A DNA stretch of 37,035 nt from an uncultured Mycoplasma sp. (GTDB taxonomy: Bacteria > Bacillota_I > Bacilli_A > RF39 > UBA660), in contig CAZEAD010000001.1 in the NCBI GenBank assembly GCA_964510115.1, forward strand, positions 1-37,035, read 5' to 3'. Position numbers and translations under genes: made by a program. Below the pieces are notes generated by a model. The model did no database searches. It was not told the origin of the DNA and worked only from the letters and a program-made list of their open reading frames with translations. Positions 12,333 through 31,582 of the stretch are shown in pieces (position 1 is the stretch's first letter; each line of letters begins with the position of its first letter).

Positions 12333-14708
12333 CTAATCATCATCACTATAAATGCTTGATCTGTCCTTAGTTTTAACTTTATCTTTTAATTTATTCAATT
12401 CTTCCTGTTTCAATAACATTTTTAACTTTTCAGGATTATTTGTATCAATACCTTCTTTAATAGCATCAATCAACTCATCCTTTGTCACAACATCATCATA
12501 AGGATCATAAGGAAGTTCAGCCTTAACTTCACCAATAATTTTTGGAGGTTCCTCTTGTTTAGCTATAGGCTTAACATCTTGATTCAAAACTGCATTTGGA
12601 TAAACAATATCATCATCAGTACCATTTTTAGATCCAAAATTAAACTCAGGTTTAAATTCAAACATAGGAGTTGCCGCTTGCTGTGTTCCTTGTGGAACAA
12701 TTGGAAGCTTTCTTCTATGAAGAAGAACAGCACTTGTAGCCACTAAACCAACAGTACCAGCCCCAATTACAGAAGCAGCTATAAACTCACCAACTGTCAT
12801 ACCAAAAATCGTACCACTTTTCTTTTCTACATTTAATTGATAAATACGAGTAAAACCATTTTCATCTGTTACCTTTATTAAAACAGCATTATTACCATTT
12901 TTTAAATTATTATTACCAGTAATTTCAACTTTAGCCTTCTCATTTTCTGGAGTAGCTACAATATCTATACTATCTACATTACTATCAACTTTAATATTAT
13001 AAGTATCAATATCCTTATCAAAACTGGGACTAATATTATGATCTTTAATAGTCAAAGATTTTAAAAGATTATTACTTGCTACCGCATCCTTATTTACATT
13101 CAAAGTATAAATACGAACACTACCATCTTCAGCAGTAACTTTAACTTGAACTGTAGAAACTTCTCCAACCTTAAAATTACCATTCCCTACTACTTCAACT
13201 TTAGCTTTTGAAGAAGAAGCAGCATAATCAATATCTAATAAATCCACTTCATATGGAATTTTAATATTATAATTACTTAAATCTTTATTAAAAGCTGGAT
13301 TTAACTCTACACCCTTTATATTTAAAGATTTAAGATAATTATCACCAGATTTTTTTACTACAGGATCAGTATTTGTCTTTGGAGCCTCTCTTGTAACATT
13401 AATAATATATATATTTTTAGTACCATTTTCTGCTTCTACTAAAACACTTACTTGATTTATTCCATATTCTAAAGACTTATTACCTGTTATTGTAACTTTT
13501 GACTTACTATCAGTTGGAATAGCTTTTACATCAAGAGATGTTACCTTCTCTCCAACAGAAATTGAATAAACATTTGTATTTTTATTAAATCCTGGTTTCA
13601 AAGTTTGTCCAGAAATACTAAGTGATTTCAAAGTAGCATCTCCACTAAGAACTGGAGTTTCTGTTTTTTCCTCTCTAGTAACTTTAATTGTATAAGTTTT
13701 CTTTGAACCATCTTCAGCTGTTACTACTACACTTACTGTATTCTCTCCAACCTTCAAGTTATCTGCTCCAGTAATAGCCACTGTAGCCTTACTATCATTC
13801 TTTATAGCATTTACAATTACCTCAGTAGCAGCATTTGGAACCTTTAAAGTATAATTAGTAACATCCTTATTAAAAGCTGGTGACAATGAATAACCATTTA
13901 CATTCAAACCACTTAACGTATTATCACTTGATTTAGGGACTTCTGTTGCTTGTCTCGTAACTTTAATTGTATAAGTTTTCTTTGAGCCATCCTCAGCTGT
14001 TACTACAACATTAACATTATTAACACCAACATTCAAATTTACATTACCAGTTCCTGTAATAGTAGCCTTTGTATCTTCCTTCGTAGCATTTACTGTAATA
14101 GAAGAAACATCATTTGGAACAGTCAAACTATAACTAGTAGTATTTTTATTAAACGCTGGAGTAATTGTCCTATCAACTACACTCAAACTAGTTAAAAAAG
14201 CATTATTCGATTTTCTTTCACCAATTGTTATTCTACCTTCACTTACAGTTCCAGTTAACTTATTAGGGATTGTATCAGATACCAATAAATTATTAATTGT
14301 TACTGCAGTAGTTCCAATCTTCTTTGTCTTAAAAGTAAAATTCATCAAATTTGTATTTGTCTTTATTCCAGTTCCAGAATAAACCCAAGCAAACTTTTTA
14401 GTTGATTCCATATAAGAAAAATTAATACCATTTGTAGCACTAGTCTGAGATACAAAATCCAAATAATCAGTATCAAATACTATATTTCCTCCAATAGAAG
14501 CAACACCATCTGTATCAGTGGTTGAAATGTTTGAAATCTTCATAGTGAAAACAACATTATCTCCCACTTGAACATTAGTCTTATTAGCAGTAAATCCAAC
14601 TGTAGCAGATCCAGCATTTGCTGCCTTAGCTTGAGGCAGCTGGAACACTAAAAATGAAAGACAAATCATTAATAGTATTCCAACCAAATTTTTACATTTC
14701 TTTTTCAT
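12333..14708 (-). CDS. Membrane-anchored scaffoldin-like surface protein: signal peptide, cohesin-like module, 5 cadherin-like modules, TM helix, cytoplasmic tail
   Basis: Signal peptide MKKKCKNLVGILLMICLSFLVFQLPQAKA. Domain motifs are listed in the sub-features. TM helix FIAASVIGAGTVGLVATSAVLL followed by HRRK (12718-12785). The tail is about 125 aa and acidic/Lys-rich. The ORF-track ATG 14720 contains the SD (ATGGAGGT), so ATG 14708 is preferred. The upstream gene's stop overlaps it (TAATG). Confidence 0.85.
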   Translation of the reverse strand: MKKKCKNLVGILLMICLSFLVFQLPQAKAANAGSATVGFTANKTNVQVGDNVVFTMKISNISTTDTDGVASIGGNIVFDTDYLDFVSQTSATNGINFSYMESTKKFAWVYSGTGIKTNTNLMNFTFKTKKIGTTAVTINNLLVSDTIPNKLTGTVSEGRITIGERKSNNAFLTSLSVVDRTITPAFNKNTTSYSLTVPNDVSSITVNATKEDTKATITGTGNVNLNVGVNNVNVVVTAEDGSKKTYTIKVTRQATEVPKSSDNTLSGLNVNGYSLSPAFNKDVTNYTLKVPNAATEVIVNAIKNDSKATVAITGADNLKVGENTVSVVVTAEDGSKKTYTIKVTREEKTETPVLSGDATLKSLSISGQTLKPGFNKNTNVYSISVGEKVTSLDVKAIPTDSKSKVTITGNKSLEYGINQVSVLVEAENGTKNIYIINVTREAPKTNTDPVVKKSGDNYLKSLNIKGVELNPAFNKDLSNYNIKIPYEVDLLDIDYAASSSKAKVEVVGNGNFKVGEVSTVQVKVTAEDGSVRIYTLNVNKDAVASNNLLKSLTIKDHNISPSFDKDIDTYNIKVDSNVDSIDIVATPENEKAKVEITGNNNLKNGNNAVLIKVTDENGFTRIYQLNVEKKSGTIFGMTVGEFIAASVIGAGTVGLVATSAVLLHRRKLPIVPQGTQQAATPMFEFKPEFNFGSKNGTDDDIVYPNAVLNQDVKPIAKQEEPPKIIGEVKAELPYDPYDDVVTKDELIDAIKEGIDTNNPEKLKMLLKQEELNKLKDKVKTKDRSSIYSDDD
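12822..14211 (-). repeat. Array of 5 cadherin-like beta-sandwich modules (about 88 aa each)
   Basis: Recurrent pattern L.SL.v.g..LsPaFnkd...Y.l.Vp..v..i.v.A...d.kA.v.itG...L..G.N.v.v.VtAedGs.ktYti.VtR. The VVVTAEDGSKKTYTIKVTR coding stretch recurs almost identically at about 13681 and 13961. Confidence 0.85.
14212..14609 (-). other. Cohesin-like module of the 795-aa protein
   Basis: SATVGFTANKTNVQVGDNVVFTMKISNI..GVASIGGNIVFDTDYLDFVSQ..MNFTFKTKKIGTTAVTI follows the cohesin pattern (v.v....v..Gd.v.v.v......g....i.yD...l.fv...f.fk....G...i). Confidence 0.55.
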
Positions 14709-14719
14709 ATAAACCTCCA

Positions 14720-17700
14720 TTAATCTATTAAAGCCTTACCAATAAAATGATTAGTTACTTTAACAGCATCTAACAAATCAATAGCATCATCGTCAATTAC
14801 ATTTCCAGCAATTCTATATGCCCCAGTCAAAGATGATTTACCAATAAAATCATTAGTTATTTTAACAGCGTCTAATAAATCAATTTCTCCATCACCAGTT
14901 GTATCACCTAAAACAATAATAACTTTTTGATCTTTAATTTCACCATTGATAATTAATTTTACAATCATTCCAGTTCCTATATTTGAATCAGTAACTACTG
15001 TAGTATCTGTACTATCATAGATAACCAAATATGCATTTTCATTATCAATATTATCTTTAAAGTCATCAATTGAAGTCAGAGATTTAACACCTAAAATATT
15101 ATCAGTAGTTACATTATATACTGAAGAAGTAATTTTCTGATCAGTCGGATCTTGCTCTCTCGTAATAACTAAAGTATAAACCTTTTCTGTACCATTTTCA
15201 CTAGTTACTTTAATCTTCAACTCATTTGCCCCAGCTTTTAAATCACTATAAGTATATGTATCTGTTTCTGTTAAGCTAGTCAAATCTTTACCAATCTCTA
15301 GTTTTGAAGCTTGATCTTCTTTACTAGCAGTAACTATAACAGATGTAATACCAGATGCCACAGTTGCGGTATAATTTTCTGTTTCTTTATTAAATGTCGG
15401 AGTCAATGTTCCTTCACTTATTTCAAGGTTTCCTAAATAATTATTATCAGATTTTCTACGAATATTAATTACATAAGTCGTCTTTGTAACATTATCTTGT
15501 GCTGTTACAACAACCTCAAATCTATTATCACCAACTTGTAATGTTTTAGTACCAGTTCCAGTTACAGTCGTGTTCTCCTCACCCGTAGCACTAATTACAA
15601 TTGAATCTTTTATATTAGAAACAGCATCTAAAGTATAACTAGTTTTAGAAGTTACAAATCCTGGAACCAAAACTCCATCTACTTCCAAACTTGCCAATCC
15701 AGAATTACTATTCATTGCTCTTATAATTGTTAACTTATAAATAGTTTTTTCATTATTCTCAGCAGTAACTTTTATTTCAAATTCATTTGAACCATATTCT
15801 AAAGTCACATCTCCAACACCCTCAATTACACTACTTGCATAAGGACTATTAGCAACTGCACTTATATTAACACTAGTAACATCACTTGTAACATGAACCT
15901 CATATTCTTTATGATCAGGAGCAAACACTGGAGAAAGAGTATAATCTGATCCATCTTTAGAAACTGTAAGAGCTGATAATGTACCATCATCATCCAATAC
16001 CTGTTCAAAATCAATAACATAAGTTTTAAGATTACCATCTTCTGGAGTTATCGTAATTGTAGCTTGTGAATCAGTTCCAATTGTATAATCACCAGTTCCA
16101 GTTATTCCTATTGCATCATTTGAAGTAGCAGCTACATGAATCGTTGTTACAGTTCGATCATATTTATATACATAACTATTTGTATTAGGATTAAACTCAG
16201 GAGTTAAAACACCTTGCGGATCACTAGTTACTTCCAAAGTAGCTAAATTTGCATCACTTAACAAACGACGAACTTTTAAAGTATAAACTTTAGTAACTGA
16301 ACCATCTTGAGAAGTTACTGTAAGAGTTATGTTGTTTTCTAAACCTTCTACTAAGAAATCAGCACCACTTACAACAACATCAGCCTCATCATGACTCTTA
16401 GTATAAGTAATAGCTAAACTTGAAATAGCACTACCAACAGGATCCAATGTATAAGTTATTGTATCCTTATTAAAATCAGTAACTGATACTCCACCAACTT
16501 TAATATCCAATAAATCAGCATCTGAACTCAATTCTCTTTTAATATTAACAGTATATGTTTTCGTAGAATCATCTTCAGCTGTAACTACAATCTTCACCTC
16601 ATTATTTCCAAATGCAAGAGATTTATTTCCAATTCCAGTAACACTTTTAACATTTTCACTACTAGCAGTAGCCTTAATCTCTACCTGATCAATATCATTT
16701 GGAACGCTTACTGTATATGTATCAACATTAGGACTAAACCTTGGATCAAGCGTATAAACATTATCACCATTTTCAACACTTAAACTTGCTAAAGTAACAT
16801 CAGAAGAAGTTTCCCTTTCAAATGTTACAGTATAAGTATCTTCACTTTCATCTTCAGCCACTACTTTAATTGTTGCAACTGTATCAACTCCTACTGTATA
16901 CTCTCCTATTCCTTCAATTCTAATTACCTTAGAATCAGCTGCAGTGGCATTAACATTTATTTTCTCAACACTTTCATCATAAATATAACGATAACTCTTT
17001 TTATTACCACTAAAAGTCGGAGTCAAAACACCTTGTGGATCACTAGTAACAATAAGTTCTGATAAAGTAGTATTATTTGATTTTCTATAAACATTTAAAG
17101 TATATGTTTCTTTAGTTGTTCCATCTTGAGCAGTAACCTCAACTAATATAGAATTATTTCCAAACTTCAAATTACTATTTCCTGTTACAGTATAAGTAGC
17201 ATGTGGATAACTAGTATGAGCTGTAATATTTAAAGAAGTTATACTTCCTGAAACTGGATCCAATGTATATGTATCAGTTCCACTTGTAAAACCTGCAATA
17301 GCAGTACCATTTACATCAATACCAGTTAAAGTTGCATCAGTATTAAGCTCTCTTACAACTCTAATATTATAAGTTTTTGTCTTATTATCCTCAGCTGTTA
17401 CTACTAATTCAAAATCATTATTTCCAAAATCAAGTGTTTTATTTCCAGTTCCAGTAACACCTTTAGCATTCGCACTACCAGCTGTTGCTTTTATCTCAAC
17501 ACTATCTATATTATTTGGAACACTAACTGTATAACTATCTTCAGTAGGACTAAAACTTGGATTAAGTGTATAAACAGTTCCACTATTTTCAACACTCAAA
17601 CTTCCTAAACTTGTATCTGAAGATTTCTTTCTTTCAAAATTAATTGTATAAGAATTAGTTGTACCATCCTCAGCTGTTACTGTAATAACAGCATTTGTAT

Positions 17701-20251
17701 CAACACCAATTGTATATTCCTTAAAACCAGTAACACTCTTTACATTAGCATTTGTTGTCGTACCATTAATATCTATTTTCGTTACCTTCTCATCATAAGT
17801 ATATGTATAAGTTCTAGTACCACTTGAGAAATTAGGACTCAATACACCTTGCGGATCACTTGTTACATTAAGTTCTGACAAAGTTGTATCATTTGATTGT
17901 CTATAGACATTTAAAGTATATGTTTCTTTAGTTGTTCCATCTTGAGCAGTAACCTCAACTAATATAGAATTATTTCCAAACTTCAAATTACTATTTCCTG
18001 TTACAGTATAAGTAGCATGTGGATAACTAGTATGAGCTGTAATATTTAAAGAAGTTATACTTCCTGAAACTGGATCCAATGTATATGTATCAGTTCCACT
18101 TGTAAAACCTGCAATAGCAGTACCATTTACATCAATACCAGTTAAAGTTGCATCAGTATTAAGCTCTCTTACAACTCTAATATTATAAGTTTTTGTCTTA
18201 TTATCCTCAGCTGTTACTACTAATTCAAAATCATTATTTCCAAAATCAAGTGTTTTATTTCCAGTTCCAGTAACACCTTTAGCATTCGCACTACCAGCTG
18301 TTGCTTTTATCTCAACACTATCTATATTATTTGGAACACTAACTGTATAACTATCTTCAGTAGGACTAAAACTTGGATTAAGTGTATAAACAGTTCCACT
18401 ATTTTCAACACTCAAACTTCCTAAACTTGTATCTGAAGATTTCTTTCTTTCAAAATTAATTGTATAAGAATTAGTTGTACCATCCTCAGCTGTTACTGTA
18501 ATAACAGCATTTGTATCAACACCAATTGTATATTCCTTAAAACCAGTAACACTCTTTACATTAGCATTTGTTGTCGTACCATTAATATCTATTTTCGTTA
18601 CCTTCTCATCATAAGTATATGTATAAGTTCTAGTACCACTTGAGAAATTAGGACTCAATACACCTTGTGGATCACTTGTTACATTAAGTGCTGATAAAGT
18701 TGTATCATTTGATTGTCTGTAAACATTTAAAGTATATGTACCCTTAGATACACCATCTTCTGCTGTTACCACTACAGTAATTGCATTATCTCCAACTTTT
18801 AAATTATTATTACCATTAACTACATATGTAGCATATTGAAAACTAGGAGTAGCAGTAACGTTTAAAGAAGTTACACTATTAACAACTGGAGCTAAAGTAT
18901 AAGTATCAGTACCACTCGTAAAACCATTAACTGTTACATTATTTACTTTTAAATCCGATAAAGTTGTATCTGTACTTGGATTTGATCTTGTTATTTCAAG
19001 TTCATAAGTATTTGAACTACAAACATTTCCCGGAACATCTTTATATAAAACATTACAATCTTCTGCATCTACAATAACACTTTTTTTATGCAAACCAGCT
19101 GTTGCAAAATTAAAATTTCCTGTTCCCTCTCTTATCGTCCCAGGTGAAACAGCAGTTGCGCTTACCAAAGTACTAGTAGTTCTATATGGAACAGTAGCAG
19201 TATATTTATAAGAACTATCAGAAAAATTTGGAGTCAATGTAATACCTGATAAAGAAAGAGCAGAAAGAGAAGCAACATTTGACAATCTCTTAATAACAAT
19301 TGTATAAATTTCTGCCGACCCATCTGCAGCAGTTACAGTAATAGAAAAACTATTATCTCCAACTACCAAATTTTTATTTCCAAGTTCACCAGGTAAAATA
19401 GAAGCACCAGAATCATGACCAACAGCTTGTAAATCAATACTAGATATTGCATTAGGAACAACAGTATTATAATTTGTAGTTGTACTGCCAGCAACAAAAG
19501 TAGGATTTAAAATATAAGATGTTTCCCCATTTTTAACAGTCAAACTTGCAAGAGTATTATCACTTGAAACCTCACCATATACTTCATATGAAACTGGAGT
19601 ACTAGTCATACTAGAAGCATTACCATCTTGATCAGTCTTAGAATTTCTTTCATCATCAAAAGTAAATTCAATCTTAGACTGTGGAGTTGCATCATCTTTT
19701 ACTTTAAAGAAATAAAAGAACATAACTCCTCCAGGATTAGTTAAAAGTGACCTAGATGCACTTTCATCCCCCAAAGTTACATTAATTAAATTTTTCCCAT
19801 CTTTAAAAAGTGGCATCTCATTAGCATCAGAAATTGTCCAACGAACACGAGTAGCAGCACTACCAGTTCCTGGGAATACTCCACCATTCTTCTCTGCTCT
19901 GTTATCAAACTCTAACATAATAAGATCTTCATCTTTCACTAACTCTAAAGCATTAGGATCATAATACATACCAATTTGTATTATCATAGCATCAGCCGGA
20001 TCCCCTACTTTATACTTAACACCCGCAGCTACATAACTACCAGGGTTAATAGCAGCACCATCACTAATTTTTACAGCATCGCCATCTTGATATGACATCA
20101 AAAAATCAGCAGTATCTAATCCATCAAATTCATATAATTCAACAGATATATCATAAGGAGAAGCTGCATTTACATCAAAAAATGGAACAAACATAAAAAT
20201 AGCGATAAGCAACAAAACAAAAATATTTCTTATTTTAAAACTGTACTTCAT
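14720..20251 (-). CDS. Giant secreted adaptor-like protein: signal peptide, cohesin-like module, 16 cadherin-like modules, X-like module, type-I-like dockerin
   Basis: The ORF is 1849 aa from ATG 20269. The internal ATG 20251 (MKYSFKIRNIFVLLLIAIFMFVPFFDVNA) fits the upstream extended -10 and the GGAAG RBS better. The C-terminus has two Ca-binding dockerin segments. Stop is TAA at 14720-14722. Confidence 0.85.
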   Translation of the reverse strand: MKYSFKIRNIFVLLLIAIFMFVPFFDVNAASPYDISVELYEFDGLDTADFLMSYQDGDAVKISDGAAINPGSYVAAGVKYKVGDPADAMIIQIGMYYDPNALELVKDEDLIMLEFDNRAEKNGGVFPGTGSAATRVRWTISDANEMPLFKDGKNLINVTLGDESASRSLLTNPGGVMFFYFFKVKDDATPQSKIEFTFDDERNSKTDQDGNASSMTSTPVSYEVYGEVSSDNTLASLTVKNGETSYILNPTFVAGSTTTNYNTVVPNAISSIDLQAVGHDSGASILPGELGNKNLVVGDNSFSITVTAADGSAEIYTIVIKRLSNVASLSALSLSGITLTPNFSDSSYKYTATVPYRTTSTLVSATAVSPGTIREGTGNFNFATAGLHKKSVIVDAEDCNVLYKDVPGNVCSSNTYELEITRSNPSTDTTLSDLKVNNVTVNGFTSGTDTYTLAPVVNSVTSLNVTATPSFQYATYVVNGNNNLKVGDNAITVVVTAEDGVSKGTYTLNVYRQSNDTTLSALNVTSDPQGVLSPNFSSGTRTYTYTYDEKVTKIDINGTTTNANVKSVTGFKEYTIGVDTNAVITVTAEDGTTNSYTINFERKKSSDTSLGSLSVENSGTVYTLNPSFSPTEDSYTVSVPNNIDSVEIKATAGSANAKGVTGTGNKTLDFGNNDFELVVTAEDNKTKTYNIRVVRELNTDATLTGIDVNGTAIAGFTSGTDTYTLDPVSGSITSLNITAHTSYPHATYTVTGNSNLKFGNNSILVEVTAQDGTTKETYTLNVYRQSNDTTLSELNVTSDPQGVLSPNFSSGTRTYTYTYDEKVTKIDINGTTTNANVKSVTGFKEYTIGVDTNAVITVTAEDGTTNSYTINFERKKSSDTSLGSLSVENSGTVYTLNPSFSPTEDSYTVSVPNNIDSVEIKATAGSANAKGVTGTGNKTLDFGNNDFELVVTAEDNKTKTYNIRVVRELNTDATLTGIDVNGTAIAGFTSGTDTYTLDPVSGSITSLNITAHTSYPHATYTVTGNSNLKFGNNSILVEVTAQDGTTKETYTLNVYRKSNNTTLSELIVTSDPQGVLTPTFSGNKKSYRYIYDESVEKINVNATAADSKVIRIEGIGEYTVGVDTVATIKVVAEDESEDTYTVTFERETSSDVTLASLSVENGDNVYTLDPRFSPNVDTYTVSVPNDIDQVEIKATASSENVKSVTGIGNKSLAFGNNEVKIVVTAEDDSTKTYTVNIKRELSSDADLLDIKVGGVSVTDFNKDTITYTLDPVGSAISSLAITYTKSHDEADVVVSGADFLVEGLENNITLTVTSQDGSVTKVYTLKVRRLLSDANLATLEVTSDPQGVLTPEFNPNTNSYVYKYDRTVTTIHVAATSNDAIGITGTGDYTIGTDSQATITITPEDGNLKTYVIDFEQVLDDDGTLSALTVSKDGSDYTLSPVFAPDHKEYEVHVTSDVTSVNISAVANSPYASSVIEGVGDVTLEYGSNEFEIKVTAENNEKTIYKLTIIRAMNSNSGLASLEVDGVLVPGFVTSKTSYTLDAVSNIKDSIVISATGEENTTVTGTGTKTLQVGDNRFEVVVTAQDNVTKTTYVINIRRKSDNNYLGNLEISEGTLTPTFNKETENYTATVASGITSVIVTASKEDQASKLEIGKDLTSLTETDTYTYSDLKAGANELKIKVTSENGTEKVYTLVITREQDPTDQKITSSVYNVTTDNILGVKSLTSIDDFKDNIDNENAYLVIYDSTDTTVVTDSNIGTGMIVKLIINGEIKDQKVIIVLGDTTGDGEIDLLDAVKITNDFIGKSSLTGAYRIAGNVIDDDAIDLLDAVKVTNHFIGKALID
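14723..14908 (-). other. Dockerin (two 22-residue segments) of the 1849-aa protein
   Basis: DTTGDGEIDLLDAVKITNDFIG and NVIDDDAIDLLDAVKVTNHFIG. These are EF-hand-like D.[ND].D..ID loops followed by helices. Confidence 0.75.
14909..15136 (-). other. X-like module immediately preceding the dockerin
   Basis: YNVTTDNILGVKSLTSIDDFKDNI...LVIYDSTDTTVVTDSNIGTGMIVKLIINGEIKDQKVIIVLGD. The same layout precedes the other two dockerins. Confidence 0.5.
15151..19568 (-). repeat. Array of 16 cadherin-like modules with an internal three-module super-repeat
   Basis: Counted by eye from recurrent L.SL.V...L.P.F.....Y...V......i.a........v.G.g...l..G.N...v.VTAeDg....Yt..v.R units. Modules 4 to 15 form four A-B-C triads. 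Confidence 0.85.
17091..18722 (-). repeat. Near-perfect tandem duplication, 2 x 816 bp (272 codons, three cadherin-like modules per unit)
   Basis: Direct comparison shows 17091-17851 identical to 17907-18667 (761 bp, no mismatch seen). A few mismatches occur in the remaining about 55 bp of each unit (for example 17852 c versus 18668 t). Confidence 0.97.
19569..20161 (-). other. N-terminal cohesin-like module of the 1849-aa protein (tentative)
   Basis: ..IIQIGMYYDPNALELVKDEDL..GGVMFFYFFKVKDDATPQSKIEFTFDDE resembles the cohesin i.YDp..Le.v / f.fkvk....g...i.f pattern. It is longer and more divergent than the other two. Confidence 0.4.
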
Positions 20252-20283
20252 AAAACACTTCCAAATCATCTATTCTTATAATG

Positions 20284-20381: not shown

Positions 20382-20408
20382 AAAAAAAAGAGATACATTA
20401 GTACCTCT
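20382..20408 (-). terminator. Rho-independent terminator after the 3460-aa gene
   Basis: Minus strand reads AGAGGTAC-TAAT-GTATCTCT (8 bp, one G-U) followed by T8. The stem overlaps the TAG stop. Confidence 0.7.
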
Positions 20409-23400
20409 AATTTACAGATGAGATTATCATTAAAATATAATTATTCAATATTGCTTTATCACCAACATTGACCGCTCCATCACCATTTATATTAGCAGCT
20501 ATAAATGGGTAATCACTTAAAAGTGAAATCATCAATATATGATTATTAATCATTGCTTTATCACCAACATTAATTTTACCATCACCATTGACATCACCTA
20601 AAACAATAACTTCTAATTCATCATAAACAATATCATCTTTTTCCAAACGTACTTTCATATAACTACTAGTCAAAGCTGTTAAATCACTAATCAAATTATT
20701 TTCTTTATCATAGAAATGTACCATAGTTAAATCATTATCAAAAGTTGTAATAAAATCATCTAACTTATAATTTGGTTCCATTCCAACAATATAATTATCA
20801 TCACGATTAATTGTATAAATAGGATTAATCAAAGTATAAGTAGTACTATCTCTAGTAATATTAAGCTTATATTCTTGAGTTGTATAACCATCCTTAGCAA
20901 TAACCTCAATTGTATAAATATTAATAATATCTAAAGATAAATCCAAATCACCAAGCAAATTAACTGTAGACTCAGGATCCTTAGCTATTGCAGTTATTTC
21001 ACTTTCCAAAAGTTTATCCTTACTTCTAGACACCTGAATATTATAAACAAAAGTATCTGGATCAAAAGCAAAATCATATCCTAAAATCTTCAAACTTTCT
21101 AATCTAGCATCAGATGTTGTCTCTCTAGTAACATTTATCGTATATGTCTTTTCATTACCATTTTCAGCTTTTACCACAATCGTTCTTACAAAATTATCAT
21201 TAGGAATAGCTTTCTGTTCATTACCTGTTACAACTGCAGTACTATCAGCAACCTCTACATCAAATTTTAAGAACAAATCTGTATCAGAAACCTTCATAGA
21301 ATATTCTAAAGTATCTGGATCAAATTCTGGAGATAACTCTCCAACACTAGGAACAATACTTATTACATCATTATTAGAACTCTTAACCCTAGTTATAACA
21401 ACTGTATAAGTCTTTGGATTACCATCTTCACTTGTTACTACAACATCATAACTATTTACATCATCTGTTAATTCCTTTGTTCCAAGACCAGTTATTGTTG
21501 CATTAGCATCAAATGCAGTTGCATCAATAGTAACAAACTTAATACTAGAAGGAACCTCAAGAGTATATTTTAAAGTATCTTTATCAAAAGTTTCATTAAA
21601 AGGAAGAACTTCTATTCCATTTAATACTCGTAAATTACTAAGGCTATTATTACCTGAAGCAATACGATTAACATTAATAGTATAAGTTCTCTCAACACCA
21701 GTCATTGATCTTGTTTTAACAAATATCTTATTTTGACCAATATTTAACTTATGTTTTCCAAGTCCTGAAATAATCTTAGCAGTTGTATCACTAACATCAG
21801 CATCAACTGTTATTTCAGTAACATCATTAGCAACCTCAACATTATAAACCATTTCATCTGGAGAGAAAGCCGGACTAAGCGTTCCTGGATCAACTGTTAA
21901 ATACAATAATTTATTATTAGTAGATAACTGACGATTTACATACAAAGTATATGTTTCAGTAAGAGTACCATCACCACTAGTAACAACTATTTCAACTTCA
22001 TTCATTCCAATATGGAAATTCTCATTTCCATTAATTTCAACATTAGCATTTTCATCAATTGGAAGTGCAGTAATATCAACATTAAATACCTCATTTGGAA
22101 CATCAATATAATATTCCATAAAATCTGAATCAAATTCTTGATCTAACTCATATCCTGTAACTTCCAAACTTTTTAACTTAGCACTAATCAAACTTTCCCT
22201 TACTACATTTATGTAATAAGATCTTACTGTTCCAAGTTCACTAGTTACATCAATTTTTATTTTATTTGATCCAACATCTAACGTATAATTATCAAAACCA
22301 CTAACAGTTGAACCACGAATCTCTGCAGCACCTGCAACTGTTATATTATCAATTTCATAAGGAACTGTTACCTCATACTCAGTTGTTTCCTTGTCAAATT
22401 CCGGAGTAAGTTCTCCTTCACTAACCAACAATGAAGCTAAATAATTATTATCACTACCATTCTTTGTAATCAAAACTGTGTATACCTTTTTAGTACCCGC
22501 TTCACTAGTAACTTCAATTAACACTTCATTTACCCCAGTAGCCACTGGATGTAAACCTATACCAGAAACCACAGCAGATGAATCTTCAGGAGTAGCATTT
22601 ATTATTACACTATTAACATCATTACCAACATCCACAGTGTAGAAAGTTATAGCCTTATGGAATGCTGGAATTAACTCCTGACCAACAACTTCCAAACTTG
22701 CCAAGTTATTATTTTTACTAGGACTTCTATTAACAGTTAAAGTATATACTTCTTTATCTTTGCCATTCGGAGCAGTTACTGTAATTGTTACTGTATTAGC
22801 ACCAGTTACAAAATCTTTATTACCTTCTACTACATAAACAGCTTCATCCTCAGTTGGTTTAATTGTTGTAAACTCTAAAGAACTACCACTAGTATTAATA
22901 GTATATTCCTTAATATCTTTATTAAACTTTGGACTCAATGTATGACCTTTGATTACCAAACTTGCCAAAGTAGCATCTGGACTCTTTTCACGTGTAATTA
23001 TTACTTGATAATCTTTTCTAAGACCTTCTTCATTAACTACTCCAACACCAATTGAATTTTTACCAACTCTTAAATCATAACTACCATTACCAACAACATT
23101 ATGATTTTCATTTACCGCTGTTCCCTTAATAGATACCTTAGATACATAATATGGAACAGTTACATTATAAATATAATCATAACTAGAAAATTCTGGAACA
23201 AGCTCCCCTTCTAAAACTTCCAAATCACTAAGCAATAACTCATCAGTTGTTGGTTCTTGTCTTATAACATTTAATGTATAATTTTTCTTATCACCACTTG
23301 GAGCAGTTACTACCACTACCACCTTATTGTTACCTACAACAAAATTTTCATTTCCCACTATTTCATATGTTGCATTTTCATCCTCCGGAATAGCCTCTAA

Positions 23401-26400
23401 AGTAAGTTTTGTTACACTATTATCTACATAAACATCATAGAAGATCGTTGTATCTTTAAAAGTAGGATTCAAAGAACCTTCTAAAGCAAACAAATATGCC
23501 AAATCATCATTATGAGATAAATCGCGAACAACTAAAACTTCATAATATTGAACAATCCCAGACTCACTAGTAACAGTAAGACTAATTGGATTTTCTCCTG
23601 TTTTCAAATCATATGACCCATTTCCTAAAACTTTAGCCTTCGGATCATTTGGAATACCTTCAATTGCAATTCTCTTAACATCATACTGAACATCCAAAAC
23701 ATACTGTGTATCTGAAACTTTCGTAACAACACTATTTTGATCATTCTTAACTTCTTTTAAAGAATTATCATCACTTTGACCTTTAGTAACTTTAAGAGTA
23801 TAAGTTTTTTCCTCACCAAGTTCACTAGTAACCTTCAAAGTTATAGTATTCTCACCTGTTACTAAAGCATATTCACCATTTCCAGTTATATAAGCATTAG
23901 CATCAGCCAAAATACCTTCAACATTAATTTTACTAGTATCATGAGGAACAGTCACCTCATATTCAGTTGTATCCTTATCAAATTTTGGATTAAGTTCTCC
24001 AGCACTTAAAATAATATCACTTAAATCATTATTATTTGAAATATCCTTTGTAACATATAAATAATAAACTTTCTTAGCTTTATTTTGAGCAATACTAGTA
24101 ATTGTAATCTGATTAACATTAGCAATTAAATTATTATTTCCACGTATCGTATAAGTAGTAGTTTCTACCTCAGGAGTAACTTTAATATCAAGTTTATTTA
24201 CACTCTTTGGAACAGTAACATGATACTCTGTAACATCCCTATTAAACTCTTCTTCCAAAGCATAACCATTTACCTCAATATTAGCCAAATTAGGATTTCC
24301 ATCTTTTTGTTTAATAATATTCAAATTATAAGTATTAATATCATTTTCCCCATTTGTAACATTTATCTTAACTTGATTAACACCACTTAAAAGTATACTA
24401 GGTTTTACAATTTCTACATTTGCTGAACTACTTTCTGCAAGAGCAATAATATCTACATCATTTACACTACTAGGAATTTCAATTGTATAATCATTTACAA
24501 GTCTATCAAAAACAGGTTTCAAAGTATAAGAAGTTGTTCCATTTTTAACTTCTAAACTACTCAAGAATACATTAGTATCTTGTTGTTTATAAATATGGAA
24601 AATATATGTTTTTGTCTCACCATTCGGAGCAGTAATAACAACATAAGCATCATTCATTCCAAGTCCTAAATTCTTATTACCATTAATAGTAACTGTTGCC
24701 TCAGGTAGTTCAGGCGTTACTTGAAAGTCAACCATTGAATATTGACTTTCTAAATTAATAGAATACTCATAAATTAATGGTGCGAAAGTCAACTCCATCT
24801 CTGGATCAACAATCTTTATATCTAAAACATTAGTATTTCCTCTTGGATCCCTAGTAATATCATAATTATAAATAACATTAGAAACCCCATCTTCACTAAT
24901 AACTTCGACTTGGAACTTATTAAGTCCAGAAGCTAAATCAACTTTACCATCCTCGATTTCTACAAAGTTTTCTCCATCCCAAGCACGATAAATTACAGTT
25001 TGGTATTCAGTTCTTAATAAAGCAATTATTTCTACTTTACTAATTGCAAATGGAACCAATATATCATAATCAGTTGTATCCGCATCAAAAGCATACTTAC
25101 AATATTCATCACCAATACTACAAATATATGGTGTCATTTTATTAATCTTAATTGTATTAGGAGTTGGATCAGTAGAAGGTTCTCTATAAATATTTAAATT
25201 ATATACCCTTACACTACCATCAGTTGAAGTAACTGTAATAGGTAAAACAGATTCATTTGGAGGTATCTTGTGTGTACCAAGTCCTAAAACAGTAGCCATA
25301 CTGTCTTTAGGAACAGCATCAACTTTTAAAGTAGCCTCATCCTCTAACAAATAAACATCATACTCTAAAGTACCTGGATGAAAATCAACAGAAATATCTC
25401 CATCATTCAAAGTTATACTATCTAAAAAGTTATTACTACTTAATACTGTCAACAAATCAATACTTGCATATCCATTACCATTATTACCATGCCCACTAGC
25501 AAAATATTCACCATTTGGATTTGGCATTAACTCTAACTTATCTTTTTTAGTTGTCCAAGAATATCCTGCTCCATCAATCATTACAGTATCGATAAAATAT
25601 CTGCCTAAGTAATTATAAGAATCTTCAATTGTTGTATAAGTAGAAACATTAGGAGTACCATCTTCCATAACTCCAATACTTCCAGCATGACCTGAAATAT
25701 ATGAAGATCCAGATCCACCTGAAATATAAGAAGAATTACCAGCATTTAAATTATAACCACCATAGTAACCACCACCAGCTCCACTTGAACCAGCAGTAGC
25801 ATCATTACCAATTTGTCCATAACCAAAAGCATATCCTGAAGTTTGAGTAGCAATTAAATTAGAATTAGATGGCTTATAACCTTGCAAGCCTCCACCTGGA
25901 ACACCAACATAATAATAACTACCACCACTTGCTCCAGCAGATACCATAATCCTACTTCGTAAAGAAGTAACATCGTTCCAAGCGCCACCAATCAAACGAA
26001 CATCAGTAGCTCCACCACCACCAGAACCAGGTTCTGGTGATGAATCATGGTTAGAATCGTTTCCACCATTAGCTCCACCGTTATAGCCACCACGACCACC
26101 AGTAAATCTATCAATTGTAGCAGAATCTTGTCCTTTACAACCAACATTGACATATAAAGTATCTCCTTGCCTTAAAAGAATTGTTCCTTTAGTATAAGAT
26201 CCTTCTCCACCAATATATTTATATACACCATCAGTCATTCCTTTACCACCAGCAGCACCCCATAACTTAATGCTATAATATCCTGAATATGGTGCAACAA
26301 ATTCCTCTGTTTTAGCAGTACAACTATAATTTTTACTATAACTTGCATCATCAGTATGAACAATTTTAATATTATAAACAGTATCATCTACCCCATCAAC

Positions 26401-29400
26401 ATGAGAAGTTATTTTTATAATATCTCCCTCTTCAATAAATGAATTACCAACTATATCAATTTTTGCTGATTTATAATAAGGAATAGCTATAAAATCAAGC
26501 TCTAGAATATTTTTATTTATAACCAATTCATAATCAGTTTGATCTTCTTTAAAATCTAAATCTATTCCTGGAAGAGATGTTTGAAGAGATTTCAACAAAC
26601 TAGTCTTTTTTCTGTTAATATTTACAGTATAAGTCTGATTCTCAGTAGAATCCTCAGATATTACAAACAAAACCTTAGATAAATTATCTACATCAAAATC
26701 ATAAGTTCCTTCTTGTCTTACTGTTTGTCCTTCATTATGTTTTATTCCTGCAATACTTACTTTATCTAAATAATAAGGAACTTCAACATCATAAACAAAC
26801 TTAGTACTTGAAAAATCTTTTATAGGAACACCATTTACTAAAATACCCTCCAAGAATTTATAATTATTTGCTTCTCTTATAAAAGTTAATTTATATATTT
26901 TAGTATTACCAGCATCATCAGTTAAAGTTATATTATGCTCAGTTGTACCAATCGGTATTGTTAATTTACCAATTCCTGTAATCAAAGCATCTTCATTATT
27001 TGAAGTAGCCTTAATTTCTAAATCAGTATCAATATTATCTAAATTAACTGTATATTCATAAACATCTTCAGCAAAACTTGGAGATATTTCTCCTTTTGAA
27101 GTAGTAAGAGATGTCAAAACAGTATCAACAGAACCTATAAATCGAATCTTAACATAACCATTTTCACTGTTTCCAGTCATATTCTTACTAGCATCAGTAT
27201 AAGTAGGCATGGATTCATTTCCAGCTTTCATTATAATATTAGAAAAAGATTTACCACTATAATGAATACTTTGCCCTGTATGAACTATCTTAGTGCTTAC
27301 AGAACTTTCATCTATAGCATTACAACCACTACAACCTGAAACGAAACTAGAACCACCTGCTCCAGAAGTATTATAAGTTGAAGCAGCGCCACTCGAATTA
27401 GCAAATCCACCATAGTATCCGCCACCACCGCCGCCAACATCAACATTAGAATTCTTAAAAACACCATCCATACCTTTACCAAAAGCATATCCAGTTGTTT
27501 GAGTACCACCTTTTGAATATTTCGTATTTTGACCACTCAAAGTTCCACCATATCCACCAGCAAGGCCATAAGCAGAACCACCACCACCAGCCGCAACCAT
27601 AATTCTTGATTTTAAAGAGTCAAAATTATCCCAATCTCCGCCTACTAAACGAATATCAGAAGCTCCTCCGCCTGCAGCAGCAGCCTCATCATCACTATGA
27701 TCATAATCTCCACGACCACCACCATTATAGCCACCAGGAACAATCGTTGAAGCCTTAGCATCACTTCCACGACCACCTACATTAATATAAAGAATAGTTC
27801 CTTCTTCTAAATAAATATCTCCTTTTGTATAAGCACCTTTTCCACCAGCATAATTAGCAGAAGCAAGATCAGAAGTATTCTTTCCACCAGCAGCACCCCA
27901 AGCTTCTAATCTATAATATCCAGTTTTATTAACAATATACTCTTCAGTATGGCCAGTATAAGCAAAATCTACATTACTTTTAGCATATTCACGATAAACA
28001 TTAAATACATACTCATTAGTATTCCCATTATCATCTGAAATTGCTATCGTAAAACTATTATCTCCTACTCTTAAATTTAAAGAACCATTAACAGTATAAG
28101 TAATATTATCTTCTTTCAAAATTTCTGGTGTTAATTTTTTAACATTATTTGGAACCTTCAAATCATAAGACATAACATTTGGAGAATAGTTAAACTTAAC
28201 TTCTTTAAATGCAATTTCTGATAAAGTAGGCTTTTCAATAGTTGGAATAATATTATAAACACTAAGAGAGCCATCTTCATTCATCAAAACAATATAATGA
28301 GTTTCTCCTTCTTTTAAGGTTACTTCTCCATCACCTATAATTGTAACAGCCTTATCTGTTGTTACTTTTATATTTGTCGAAAAATTATCATTAGGAATTA
28401 AAACATGATATGTAAGTATGCTATCACTAACAGGTTCAACAACTTTAGCTCCTTCAACATCTAAATCAATAATAGCTGGTAAAGCTTCAATTAACGTTAT
28501 TCTAGCATGACCATTACTATCATTACCAGTCATAGTTGTTCCTGGAGTTTGGAAACTAGGCATTGAAACATTTCCGGCTAGCATAACAATGTCTGTAAAA
28601 GATTTGCCACTATAATGTATACTTTGACCTGTATGAACTATATTAGTACTTACAGAACTTTTATCTATAGCATCACAACCACTGCAACCAGAAACGAAAC
28701 TAGATCCACCTGCACCAGCAGTGCCATAAGCTGAAGCAGCACCACTTGAATTAGCATAACCACCATAGTAGCCACCACCAGCGCCACCAACATCAACATT
28801 AGAATCTTTATAAATTCCATCCATTCCTTTTCCAAAAGCATACCCAGTTGTTTGAGTTCCACCTTTTGAATATTTAGTATCCTGTCCAGCTAAAGCACCA
28901 CCATAGCCTCCACTAAGGCCATCAGAAGCACCACCGCCACCACTAGCAACCATAATTCTTGATTTCAAGGAATTGAAATTATCCCAATCACCGCTAATTA
29001 AACGAATGTCAGTAGCTCCTCCTCCTGCTCCAGCAGCTTCATCATCACCATGATCCCAATCACCACGACCTCCGCCATTATAGCCACCAGGAACAATTGT
29101 CGAAGGTTTTGCATTAGTTCCTTTACCACCAACATATATATAAAGAACTTCATCCTTTTTTAAGTAAATTCTACCTTTTGTATAAGCACCTTTTCCACCA
29201 TAATAAGTTACTCTAGTGCCAGAAACAATATTATTACCACCACCAGCACCCCAAGCTTCTATCTCATAGTATCCAGTTCTTGGTACTTTAAAAGTTTGAT
29301 AATTTCCAGAATAATTAAAGTCCTCAACCTCTGTCACATCATTATCTTTATATTCTTCGCGAATAACTTTTATTTTATATTCAGCATCATCACAATTTTC

Positions 29401-30938: not shown

Positions 30939-31352
30939 TTATTCTTTATCAAATCCACAACTAAGTTCTACTTTAATATCATAATCAGTCTTCCCATATT
31001 TTTCTTTTGGATAAATAATAGCACGTGTTGACATAGTATCACATTTTTCATTTGTCTTTCTATTTACAAACTCTTCTATCTTAGCTTGATTTTCTTTACT
31101 ATTATATCTACTTAAACCATCAAGAGTAACTTTAATTCCGATAGTTTTAAAAGGTTTAAGAAACTTTTCACGATCCTCTAAAGTTTCACCAGTTTGATCA
31201 TAATAATAATCCTCATAAAAATCTCTACCCATCTCTTTTAAACTTCTCTCTAGTTTCTTTTCTTGAGTATTATTTAAAATTAAAAACAAAGCCACGCCTA
31301 AAACTGCAACCACACCCACAACTATTAAAATTAAAACATTCTTCTTTTTCAT
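30939..31352 (-). CDS. 137-aa membrane-anchored protein of unknown function
   Basis: AAGGAG RBS 7 nt upstream. N-terminal anchor MKKKNVLILIVVGVVAVLGVALFLIL. The extracytoplasmic domain has two Cys residues. Confidence 0.65.
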   Translation of the reverse strand: MKKKNVLILIVVGVVAVLGVALFLILNNTQEKKLERSLKEMGRDFYEDYYYDQTGETLEDREKFLKPFKTIGIKVTLDGLSRYNSKENQAKIEEFVNRKTNEKCDTMSTRAIIYPKEKYGKTDYDIKVELSCGFDKE

Positions 31353-31554: not shown

Positions 31555-31582
31555 AAAAATATAAACAATGGAGGTATGCAGT

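What the first reader, a model, noticed from the sequence alone, without database searches (positions are those of the whole stretch)
14723..14908. Three dockerins with three different, internally symmetric recognition codes
Numbering from the first Asp of each 12-residue Ca loop, positions 10-11 are the classical cohesin-contact pair (Ser-Thr in C. thermocellum type I dockerins). They read L-L in both segments of the 1849-aa dockerin (14723-14908). They read V-G in both segments of the 3460-aa dockerin (20410-20598). They read S-A in both segments of the autolysin dockerin (33602-33787). The following helix is also conserved within each dockerin but differs between them: DAVK[IV]TN.FIG, DKA[MI][IL]NN[HY]IL and DFSRIQKHILK. 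Within-dockerin symmetry is the hallmark of the dual binding mode. Between-dockerin divergence predicts three distinct specificities, which matches the three cohesin-like modules in the locus.
Basis: partly seen in the sequence, partly recalled or inferred. Interest (0 to 1): 0.6.

Follow-up and report, generated by a model that had tools for sequence, protein, structure and literature searches.

The report
Three orthogonal dockerin–cohesin pairs, one locus
An uncultured small-genome gut bacterium carries three "plug" (dockerin) modules with three different, internally mirrored recognition codes, and each is encoded right before a gene that opens with a "socket" (cohesin) module, so the locus probably builds a membrane-anchored three-part surface fibre plus a tethered cell-wall enzyme using the connector known from cellulosomes.

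Summary
The 1849-aa, 3460-aa and 740-aa proteins end in dockerins at the stated coordinates. Loop positions 10-11 read L-L, V-G and S-A, the same in both segments. All five classical recognition positions (10, 11, 17, 18, 22) differ between the three dockerins.

The three cohesin-like modules are real. They are the N-termini of the 795-aa TM-anchored protein, the 1849-aa protein and the 511-aa TM-anchored protein.

Every dockerin gene is followed directly by a gene that starts with a cohesin. This suggests giant -> adaptor -> membrane anchor, and autolysin -> second anchor. The three-gene order recurs in eight other lineages, each with different, symmetric, tier-specific codes.

Across 142 related dockerins, positions 9-11 are hypervariable yet mirrored within each dockerin. 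In 120 autolysin/anchor pairs, dockerin divergence tracks the neighbouring cohesin specifically (partial r 0.57).

Binding, orthogonality and dual-mode binding are untested. Gene conversion explains part of the symmetry.

This scan had already found the autolysin/anchor pair on other DNA (at least 8 genomes). The three-tier giant-fibre system and the code statistics are new here. Verdict: a new variant of a known kind (non-cellulosomal cohesin-dockerin assembly).

The parts
14723..14908 (-). Dockerin of the 1849-aa adaptor. Ca loops at 14870-14905 and 14768-14803. Code L-L / T-N / G at positions 10-11 / 17-18 / 22 in both segments. The second loop is non-canonical (N-V-I-D-D-D).
14909..15136 (-). 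Beta-rich X-like module directly upstream of the adaptor dockerin
   Evidence: AF2 model, residues 15-85 of the 150-aa construct, pLDDT >87. No convincing PDB match for this part.
19562..20164 (-). Divergent cohesin with a ~35-residue insertion at the N-terminus of the 1849-aa adaptor. Proposed socket for the 3460-aa dockerin.
14720..20269 (-). Adaptor gene: signal peptide, cohesin, many cadherin-like modules (13 Pfam matches), X module, dockerin
20410..20598 (-). Dockerin of the 3460-aa giant protein. Code V-G / N-N / M in both segments.
20407..30789 (-). Giant cargo gene: 4 ALK/LTK-type glycine-rich domains, 19 cadherin-like modules, X module, dockerin
14205..14621 (-). Cohesin at the N-terminus of the 795-aa anchor. 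Proposed socket for the 1849-aa dockerin.
12720..12785 (-). C-terminal TM helix of the 795-aa anchor, followed by HRRK and a ~125-aa cytoplasmic tail
   Evidence: sequence
12333..14720 (-). Anchor gene 1 (795 aa). Its ATG overlaps the stop codon of the adaptor gene.
33602..33787 (+). Dockerin of the 740-aa GH73-like autolysin. Code S-A / Q-K / K in both segments. Codons for positions 11-23 are identical in the two segments.
31568..33790 (+). Autolysin gene: 2 SH3b modules, GH73-like core, cadherin-like module, X module, dockerin
33880..34263 (+). Cohesin at the N-terminus of the 511-aa anchor. Proposed socket for the autolysin dockerin.
35062..35127 (+). TM helix of the 511-aa anchor
   Evidence: sequence
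33805..35340 (+). Anchor gene 2 (511 aa), starting 14 nt after the autolysin stop codon

Best explanation
The locus encodes two non-cellulosomal cohesin-dockerin assemblies on the surface of a small-genome gut Bacilli bacterium. Together they use three separate plug-socket specificities.

(1) A three-tier fibre. The 795-aa protein sits in the membrane by a C-terminal TM helix and presents one cohesin. That cohesin binds the L-L dockerin of the 1849-aa adaptor. The adaptor's own N-terminal cohesin binds the V-G dockerin of the 3460-aa glycine-rich/cadherin-like giant.

(2) A tethered enzyme. The 511-aa TM-anchored cohesin binds the S-A dockerin of the GH73-like autolysin.

Distinct residues at recognition positions 10, 11, 17, 18 and 22 keep the three interactions from crossing, so each tier assembles in the right order. 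Because the recognition residues are the same in both dockerin segments, each dockerin can probably bind in either of two orientations rotated by 180 degrees.

Shown here: module identities, gene order, conservation, code symmetry and co-divergence. Inferred: who binds whom, orthogonality and dual-mode binding.
For: Module identity: dockerins. Cohesins (511-type versus 795-type hhalign 97.6%, E 3.4e-12).

Adjacency in the window. The 3460-aa gene ends at 20407 and the 1849-aa gene starts at 20269. The 1849-aa stop overlaps the 795-aa start at 14720. The autolysin stop is 14 nt before the 511-aa start.

Conserved order. The order giant -> adaptor -> anchor recurs in JGI contigs L098/L099 and L100/L101, in G057, and in G217, G250, G256 and G141. 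In G065 the giant's dockerin ends one contig and the adaptor-anchor pair opens another.
- In all nine triads the giant and adaptor codes differ.
- 19 of 21 dockerins tabulated carry the same 10-11 pair in both segments.
- Same-tier dockerins from different genomes are more alike (adaptors 0.48, giants 0.38) than different tiers in one genome (0.30).
- Close orthologues keep the code: L-L in three adaptors whose N-terminal modules share 57-67% identity, A-I in four others.

Autolysin/anchor pair.
- Dockerins occur in 53 of 61 genera of the family.
- The 511-type anchor occurs in 20 of 24 family genomes and in at least 514 loci of species representatives.
- In G010, G017, G018 and G020 the only Pfam dockerin and the only Pfam cohesin of the genome lie 100-300 nt apart.

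Symmetry is position-specific (142 dockerins). Positions 9/10/11 have entropy 2.4-2.7 bits but within-dockerin identity 0.73/0.91/0.79, against 0.24/0.24/0.27 expected. Variable positions 4, 8 and 16 are no more alike within a dockerin than expected, and positions 2 and 7 are less mirrored (ratio 1.8-1.9 against 3.0-3.8).

Co-divergence (120 pairs). r(dockerin, cohesin) = 0.72, against 0.52 and 0.49 for two other domains of the same anchor. Partial r is 0.57 (permutation p <= 0.001), against 0.07 and 0.09. For positions 9-11 alone, partial r is 0.45 against about 0.

Structure: in the AF2 model positions 10-11 open helices 1 and 3, as in solved dockerins.

Precedent: adjacent single cohesin and dockerin genes do bind in C. 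lentocellum (PMC13487519).
Against:
- The dockerin and its proposed cohesin are under 300 nt apart on the DNA. Co-replacement by recombination would give the same co-divergence without proving contact.
- The mutual-information scan picked helix positions 13, 14, 17 and 18 rather than 10/11.
- Identical codons between segments exceed expectation (0.72 against 0.59). The autolysin dockerin has 13 identical codons in a row, so conversion contributes to the symmetry.
- The second Ca loop of the 1849-aa dockerin lacks the canonical position-3 ligand (Ile) and the Gly at position 6. The module is below the Pfam cut-off.
- The model of the 1849-aa N-terminal cohesin is only moderate (pLDDT 60.9).
- Small hydrophobic pairs (L-L, V-G, S-A) could allow some cross-binding.
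Confidence: 0.6

Rival explanations
1. The modules are real, but specificity is loose. The three dockerins cross-bind two or all three cohesins, and the differences at positions 10/11 are drift on a generally hydrophobic interface.
For: Positions 10-11 are hypervariable among orthologous autolysin dockerins: 60 distinct seg1/seg2 combinations in 142 dockerins. The mutual-information scan did not tie 10/11 to specific cohesin columns. All three pairs in the window are small or hydrophobic residues.
Against: Drift would not keep both segments identical at exactly the variable positions 9-11 (0.73-0.91 against 0.24-0.27). The codes are stable among close orthologues (L-L x3, A-I x4). Distance at positions 9-11 tracks the partner cohesin only (partial r 0.45 against ~0). 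Helix residues also differ at 7-10 of 11 positions between the three dockerins.
Confidence: 0.2
2. The internal symmetry is a by-product of concerted evolution (intragenic gene conversion between the two repeats), not of selection for a dual binding mode. Each dockerin binds in a single orientation.
For: Same-codon frequency between segments is 0.72, against 0.59 expected. The window's autolysin dockerin has identical codons at positions 11-23, while its loops differ at synonymous sites.
Against: Conversion would homogenise whole tracts. Instead, variable positions 4, 8 and 16 are no more alike within a dockerin than expected, while 9, 10, 11, 13, 14, 17 and 18 are mirrored. The 1849-aa and 3460-aa dockerins carry several synonymous differences around identical recognition residues. 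The expected codon identity was pooled over genomes, so it is probably an underestimate.
Confidence: 0.3
3. The dockerin-like modules do not bind cohesins at all. They act as Ca-dependent stabilising or wall-binding tails, and the neighbouring cohesin-like proteins have an unrelated role.
For: Many non-cellulosomal dockerins have no known partner. [quoted passage not shown] Two of the three cohesins and one dockerin fall below the Pfam cut-offs.
Against: Dockerin-then-cohesin gene adjacency holds in about 120 non-redundant loci and in nine triads. Co-divergence is specific to the cohesin domain. In four genomes the only dockerin lies beside the only cohesin.
Confidence: 0.07

Closest known systems
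Cellulosomal type I cohesin-dockerin system with adaptor and anchoring scaffoldins (e.g. Acetivibrio cellulolyticus ScaA/ScaB/ScaC, C. thermocellum CipA/OlpB)
   Same: Duplicated 22-residue dockerin segments with recognition residues at positions 10, 11, 17, 18 and 22. Internal symmetry. An adaptor protein carrying both a cohesin and a dockerin. Different specificities for different tiers. The dockerin model superposes on 2ccl, 1ohz and 4uyp at 0.9-1.4 A. The cohesin profiles hit ScaB and CipA cohesins.
   Different: No plant-cell-wall enzymes or CBMs in the locus. Each scaffold has a single cohesin, giving a linear chain rather than a multi-enzyme platform. Anchoring is by a C-terminal TM helix with a cytoplasmic tail, not SLH or sortase; SLH was not found and sortases are present elsewhere in the genome. 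The cargo is a 3460-aa glycine-rich/cadherin-like giant and an autolysin. The recognition pairs (L-L, V-G, S-A) differ from S-T or S-I/L.
Clostridium perfringens non-cellulosomal cohesin-dockerin pairs (NagJ cohesin, PDB 2jh2/2ozn)
   Same: Best solved-structure match of the 795-type cohesin profile (E 8e-11). A non-cellulolytic Firmicute uses Coh-Doc to join large secreted multimodular proteins.
   Different: There the partners are secreted glycoside hydrolases acting on host glycans, with no membrane-anchored hierarchy (own knowledge of Adams et al. 2008, not read here). Here there are three tiers and TM anchors.
Single dockerin plus single cohesin associated with a GH73 enzyme in Ruminococcus bicirculans (Wegmann et al. 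2014, as quoted in PMC4611034)
   Same: A dockerin associated with a GH73-type wall hydrolase, plus one cohesin, in a non-cellulolytic gut Firmicute. This matches the autolysin/511-aa pair.
   Different: It is only mentioned in passing, with no binding or specificity data. It has no additional giant/adaptor tiers.
ClcC/ClcD minimal cohesin-dockerin pair of Cellulosilyticum lentocellum (PMC13487519) and the R. bromii amylosome (PMC4611034)
   Same: Adjacent single cohesin and dockerin genes shown to form a complex. Cohesin-dockerin assembly used outside cellulose degradation.
   Different: The cargos are cellulase or amylases. There is no TM-anchored three-tier chain and no autolysin.

Membership tests
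Dockerin (Pfam PF00404, type I-like) | Two tandem ~22-residue segments, each a 12-residue EF-hand-like loop followed by a helix | tested here: met
   All three C-termini. The AF2 model of the 1849-aa module has helices starting at loop position 10 of each segment.
Dockerin (Pfam PF00404, type I-like) | Score above the Pfam gathering cut-off (22.9 bits) | tested here: inconclusive
   740-aa: 66.6 bits. 3460-aa: 46.7 bits. 1849-aa: 17.0 bits, which fails. The lineage-specific HMM gives the 1849-aa module 60.5 bits, and the fold matches solved dockerins.
Dockerin (Pfam PF00404, type I-like) | Canonical Ca ligands (D/N) at loop positions 1, 3, 5, 9, 12 | tested here: inconclusive
   Met in both loops of the 740-aa and 3460-aa dockerins. 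The 1849-aa dockerin has Thr (loop 1) and Ile (loop 2) at position 3 and Asp instead of Gly at position 6 of loop 2. Loop 2 is similarly non-canonical in P0006 and P0007 (Ile at position 3, no Gly at position 6).
Dockerin (Pfam PF00404, type I-like) | Ca-dependent binding to a cohesin | not testable with these tools
   Needs protein work or multimer modelling.
Cohesin (Pfam PF00963) | Sequence membership | tested here: met
   511-aa module: 27.7 bits, above 24.1. 795-type profile against PDB cohesins: E 8e-11. 1849-type profile against PDB cohesins: E 6.9e-7. hhalign 97.6% and 90.5% between the three types. As single sequences, the 795-aa and 1849-aa modules fail the Pfam cut-off.
Cohesin (Pfam PF00963) | Nine-stranded beta-sandwich fold | tested here: inconclusive
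   Only the 1849-aa N-terminus was modelled: pLDDT 60.9, 10 strands, disordered insertion at residues 79-114. The Foldseek top 8 hits are all cohesins, but TM is only 0.45-0.57.
Dual-binding-mode dockerins | Same recognition residues in both segments | tested here: met
   Positions 10, 11, 17, 18 and 22 are identical in both segments of all three dockerins. Family-wide, 74% share the 10-11 pair.
Dual-binding-mode dockerins | Two orientations of binding demonstrated | not testable with these tools
   Needs single-segment mutants or structures.
Cellulosome | Dockerin-borne plant-cell-wall-degrading enzymes on a multi-cohesin scaffoldin | tested here: not met
   The cargos are a glycine-rich/cadherin-like giant and a GH73-like autolysin. 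Each scaffold has one cohesin. The genome holds only three dockerins.
Cellulosome | Anchoring scaffoldin attached by SLH repeats or sortase signal | tested here: not met
   Both anchors end in a TM helix plus a cytoplasmic tail. No SLH was found in the 77%-complete genome.

The most novel reading that the evidence does not exclude
Reduced-genome gut Bacilli build a surface filament of more than 6,000 residues by chaining three proteins end to end (membrane anchor, adaptor, giant glycine-rich adhesin) through orthogonal cohesin-dockerin pairs. They leash their autolysin with a third pair. The recognition code diversifies quickly between lineages while staying mirrored within each dockerin. That would give a natural library of dozens of mutually orthogonal, dual-mode connectors that co-evolve as dockerin/cohesin cassettes across adjacent genes.
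Probability: 0.45. Interest if true: 0.72.

Novelty: new variant of a known kind. Interest (0 to 1): 0.6.

Why it matters
Cohesin-dockerin biology has been worked out almost entirely in cellulosomes. Here the same connector appears to organise the cell surface of an uncultured, wall-bearing, ~1-Mb-genome gut lineage. One pair tethers an autolysin and occurs in most genera of the family. A rarer three-tier chain, found in 8 of 251 genomes searched, displays a giant protein that carries ALK-type glycine-rich domains.

If the adjacency-based pairings hold, the locus gives a compact, testable case of how tier order is enforced by orthogonal recognition codes. The roughly 140 related dockerins give a natural experiment on how specificity residues change while keeping two-fold symmetry. 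The pairs could also serve as new orthogonal parts for designer protein scaffolds.

Tried and rejected
- The search for homologous proteins with the 795-aa N-terminus found only the query itself.
- The search for related loci failed three times: alignment A1 had no conserved stretch, A2 found nothing in genome contigs, and A5 found nothing in metagenome contigs.
- Mutual information between dockerin and anchor columns was enriched for cohesin columns (46 of the top 100, against 27% expected). It pointed to helix positions 13, 14, 17 and 18, not to 10/11, and it is confounded by class structure. I rely on the partial mirror-tree test instead.
- A wholesale gene-conversion explanation for the symmetry was considered and only partly retained.
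- Single-sequence Pfam scans miss two of the three cohesins and one dockerin, so Pfam alone would have undercounted.
- The review by Peer et al. 2009 (PMC3035643) is not held.
- Complex prediction was not possible: structure prediction takes single chains of the window only.
- No paper in the library mentions both RF39 and dockerin. The order name RF39 is my own guess from record titles such as 'Clostridium sp. CAG:524' and 'uncultured Tenericutes'.
Full report

| Protein | Gene | Dockerin | Loops | Positions 10-11 |
|---|---|---|---|---|
| 1849 aa | 14720-20269, - | 14723-14908 (62 aa) | DTTGDGEIDLLD / NVIDDDAIDLLD | L-L / L-L |
| 3460 aa | 20407-30789, - | 20410-20598 | DVNGDGKINVGD / NINGDGAVNVGD | V-G / V-G |
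| 740 aa | 31568-33790, + | 33602-33787 | DLNGDGTINSAD / DVNYDGNINSAD | S-A / S-A |

Two second loops start with Asn rather than Asp. The literature names five recognition positions, 10, 11, 17, 18 and 22 (PMC3413522; PMC8063739). All five read the same in both segments of each dockerin: L-L/T-N/G, V-G/N-N/M and S-A/Q-K/K. They differ between dockerins at all but position 18, where the 1849-aa and 3460-aa dockerins both have Asn. Segment-to-segment identity is 15-20 of 23. Identity between dockerins is 4-12 of 23, and only 1-4 of 11 in the helix.

**Is the flagged module a dockerin?** Pfam accepts the 740-aa and 3460-aa modules (66.6 and 46.7 bits). It does not accept the 1849-aa one (17.0 bits, cut-off 22.9). 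Three further results address this.
- An HMM built from 35 dockerins of related genomes scores it 60.5 bits.
- An AlphaFold2 model of its last 150 residues, using 53 homologues, has pLDDT 92.1.
- The C-terminal 60-odd residues of that model superpose on solved dockerins (2ccl, 1ohz, 4uyp, 2vn5/2vn6) at 0.9-2.9 A, with target-normalised TM 0.77-0.88. The 15 best hits are all dockerins.

In the model, positions 10-11 of each segment (L99/L100 and L133/L134) are the first residues of helices 1 and 3. The second Ca loop is atypical, with Ile at position 3 and Asp at position 6. Loop 2 is similarly non-canonical in orthologues P0006 and P0007.

**The three cohesin-like modules.**
- 511-aa protein N-terminus: passes Pfam Cohesin when scanned alone (27.7 bits).
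- 795-aa protein N-terminus: no Pfam hit. A profile of 15 homologues matches the Clostridium perfringens NagJ cohesin (2jh2/2ozn) at E 8e-11, followed by cellulosomal cohesins.
- 1849-aa protein N-terminus: the most divergent. Pfam gives 16.1 bits. This type occurs in only 23 clusters among 1.84 billion representatives. A profile of 19 of them hits essentially only cohesins in the PDB (28 of the first 29), best 3l8q at E 6.9e-7. hhalign to the 795-type profile gives 90.5%. A moderate AF2 model (pLDDT 60.9, with a disordered ~35-residue insertion) finds cohesins as its top Foldseek matches.
- The 511-type and 795-type profiles match each other at 97.6%.

Both anchors carry a signal peptide, one cohesin, cadherin-like modules, a C-terminal TM helix (12720-12785 and 35062-35127) and a cytoplasmic tail.

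**Gene order suggests the pairing.** Each dockerin gene is followed directly, on the same strand, by a gene that starts with a cohesin.
- The 3460-aa gene is followed by the 1849-aa gene.
- The 1849-aa gene is followed by the 795-aa gene, with the stop overlapping the start.
- The 740-aa gene is followed by the 511-aa gene, with a 14-nt gap.

**Conservation of the autolysin pair.** Dockerins occur in 53 of 61 genera of the same GTDB family. The 511-type anchor occurs in 20 of 24 family genomes and in at least 514 loci among species representatives. Their record titles are uncultured Bacilli, Tenericutes or Mollicutes MAGs from rabbit, human (Hadza), goat, sheep and deer guts, and they include Clostridium sp. 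CAG:524. In almost all of the loci fetched, the dockerin-bearing hydrolase is followed by the cohesin anchor. In G010, G017, G018 and G020 the only Pfam dockerin and the only Pfam cohesin of the genome lie 100-300 nt apart. The hydrolase core matches staphylococcal GH73 glucosaminidases (6fxo at E 1.2e-6).

**Conservation of the three-tier unit.** The adaptor-type cohesin is rare: 8 of 251 family genomes, and it was not found in same-genus G001, which is 94% complete. Wherever it was found with enough flanking DNA, the order giant -> adaptor -> TM anchor recurs. The cases are two JGI metagenome lineages, G057, and G217, G250, G256 and G141. In G065 the giant's dockerin ends one contig and the adaptor-anchor pair opens another, so contiguity there is inferred. 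G162 has the adaptor and anchor with no giant upstream.

Codes at positions 10-11, giant / adaptor:

| Lineage | Giant | Adaptor |
|---|---|---|
| window | VG | LL |
| L098 | VG | LL |
| L100 | VA-VG | LL |
| G065 | VT-VS | IN |
| G057 | GP | PL |
| G217 | VD | AI |
| G250 | VK | AI |
| G256 | ID | AI |
| G141 | VK | AI |

The two tiers never share a code. Nineteen of 21 dockerins are symmetric at 10-11. Same-tier dockerins across genomes are more alike than different tiers within one genome (0.48 and 0.38 against 0.30). The three specificities are therefore old and tier-specific, not recent duplicates.

**Symmetry statistics.** In 142 non-redundant dockerins of the lineage, positions 9, 10 and 11 are among the most variable (2.4-2.7 bits). 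They are nonetheless identical in the two segments of one dockerin in 73%, 91% and 79% of cases, against 24-27% for cross-paired segments. Other variable positions (4, 8, 16) are no more alike than expected, and 2 and 7 are less mirrored. The same 10-11 pair occurs in both segments in 74% of dockerins, against 7.4% expected. This position-specific mirroring is what selection for two equivalent binding faces predicts (PMC12484212 sec. 3.1). Gene conversion contributes as well. Identical codons at identical residues are more frequent than expected (0.72 against 0.59). In the window's autolysin dockerin, positions 11-23 use identical codons in both segments, while the loops differ synonymously.

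**Co-divergence.** For 120 autolysin/anchor pairs, pairwise dockerin distance correlates with the distance of the neighbouring cohesin (r 0.72). The correlation is weaker with the cadherin-like domain (0.52) and the C-terminal domain (0.49) of the same anchor. The partial correlation with the cohesin is 0.57 (permutation p <= 0.001), while those with the other two domains fall to 0.07 and 0.09. Using only positions 9-11 of both segments, the values are 0.45, -0.005 and -0.02. A mutual-information scan put 46 of the top 100 pairs in cohesin columns (27% expected), but it highlighted helix positions 13, 14, 17 and 18. One caveat applies: the two modules are physically adjacent on the DNA, so joint replacement by recombination would give the same signal.

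**Comparison with what is known.** The modules are cohesins and dockerins, but the system is not a cellulosome. It has no plant-cell-wall enzymes, it has single-cohesin scaffolds, and it uses TM anchors instead of SLH or sortase; sortases exist elsewhere in the genome and no SLH was found. Closest precedents:
- C. perfringens non-cellulosomal cohesins (best PDB match).
- The single dockerin and cohesin 'associated with a GH73 enzyme' in R. bicirculans, and the R. bromii amylosome (PMC4611034).
- The adjacent ClcC/ClcD pair, shown to bind (PMC13487519).

This scan had already described the autolysin/membrane-cohesin pair in at least eight other genomes. New here are the three-tier chain with the glycine-rich giant, the co-existence of three tier-specific codes in one locus, and the family-wide evidence that positions 9-11 are both hypervariable and mirrored.

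**Limits.** No binding, orthogonality or orientation data exist. The genome is incomplete.

**Verdict.** This is a new variant of a known kind.

Noticed in passing
window 30939-31352 (-); L182 9923-10460; L184 10643-11090: The 137-aa single-TM protein upstream of the giant gene (…FYEDYYYDQ…VELSCGFDKE) has clear homologues just downstream of the adaptor/anchor genes in G162 and G250 (…FYTDFYYTE…VELDCGFDSE; …FYENFYYEQ…TELDCGFKK). It may be a conserved accessory of the three-tier unit. Function unknown.
   Followed up: partly
P0008, P0012, P0023, P0024; L086 1159-2062 (G057, 301 aa): 'Mini-adaptors' of 260-300 aa: an adaptor-type or 795-type cohesin joined almost directly to a dockerin, without the cadherin-like stalk. 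In G057 the 301-aa one carries the same P-L code as the 2440-aa adaptor.
   Followed up: no
L085 (G011:C2, 811 aa), L084 (G047:C62, 894 aa), L081 (G095:C39, 828 aa): Single TM-anchored proteins in which a weak dockerin-like segment is followed within ~20 residues by a 795-type cohesin in the same reading frame. This could be a fused or self-capping form of the pair.
   Followed up: no
window 12336-12700 (-) and anchors in L098, L100, L183, L185, L186: The cytoplasmic tails of 795-type anchors share a conserved motif (…VVTKDELIDAI.EG…NPEKLKMLLKQEELN.LKD…) across distant lineages. This suggests an intracellular partner or signal.
   Followed up: no
window 34570-35000 (+) and ~120 homologous anchors: 511-type anchors have a well-conserved ~150-residue domain between the cadherin-like module and the TM helix (…PI.V.I….YTVV…EVPAF…TLVGLKD..G.I.LY.YD…). 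It has no Pfam or PDB match.
   Followed up: partly
L100 17082-18749: One relative has two consecutive 795-type anchors (803 and 555 aa) after the adaptor and two giants before it. G057 also has two giants with identical dockerins. Copy number of tiers therefore varies.
   Followed up: no
window 17091-18722 (-): Near-perfect internal duplication of three cadherin-like modules in the 1849-aa protein, visible in the translation.
   Followed up: no
G000 versus G001: The giant/adaptor/anchor unit was not found in the same-genus genome G001 (94% complete). It is present in only 8 of 251 family genomes. The distribution is patchy and suggests gain or loss as a block.
   Followed up: partly
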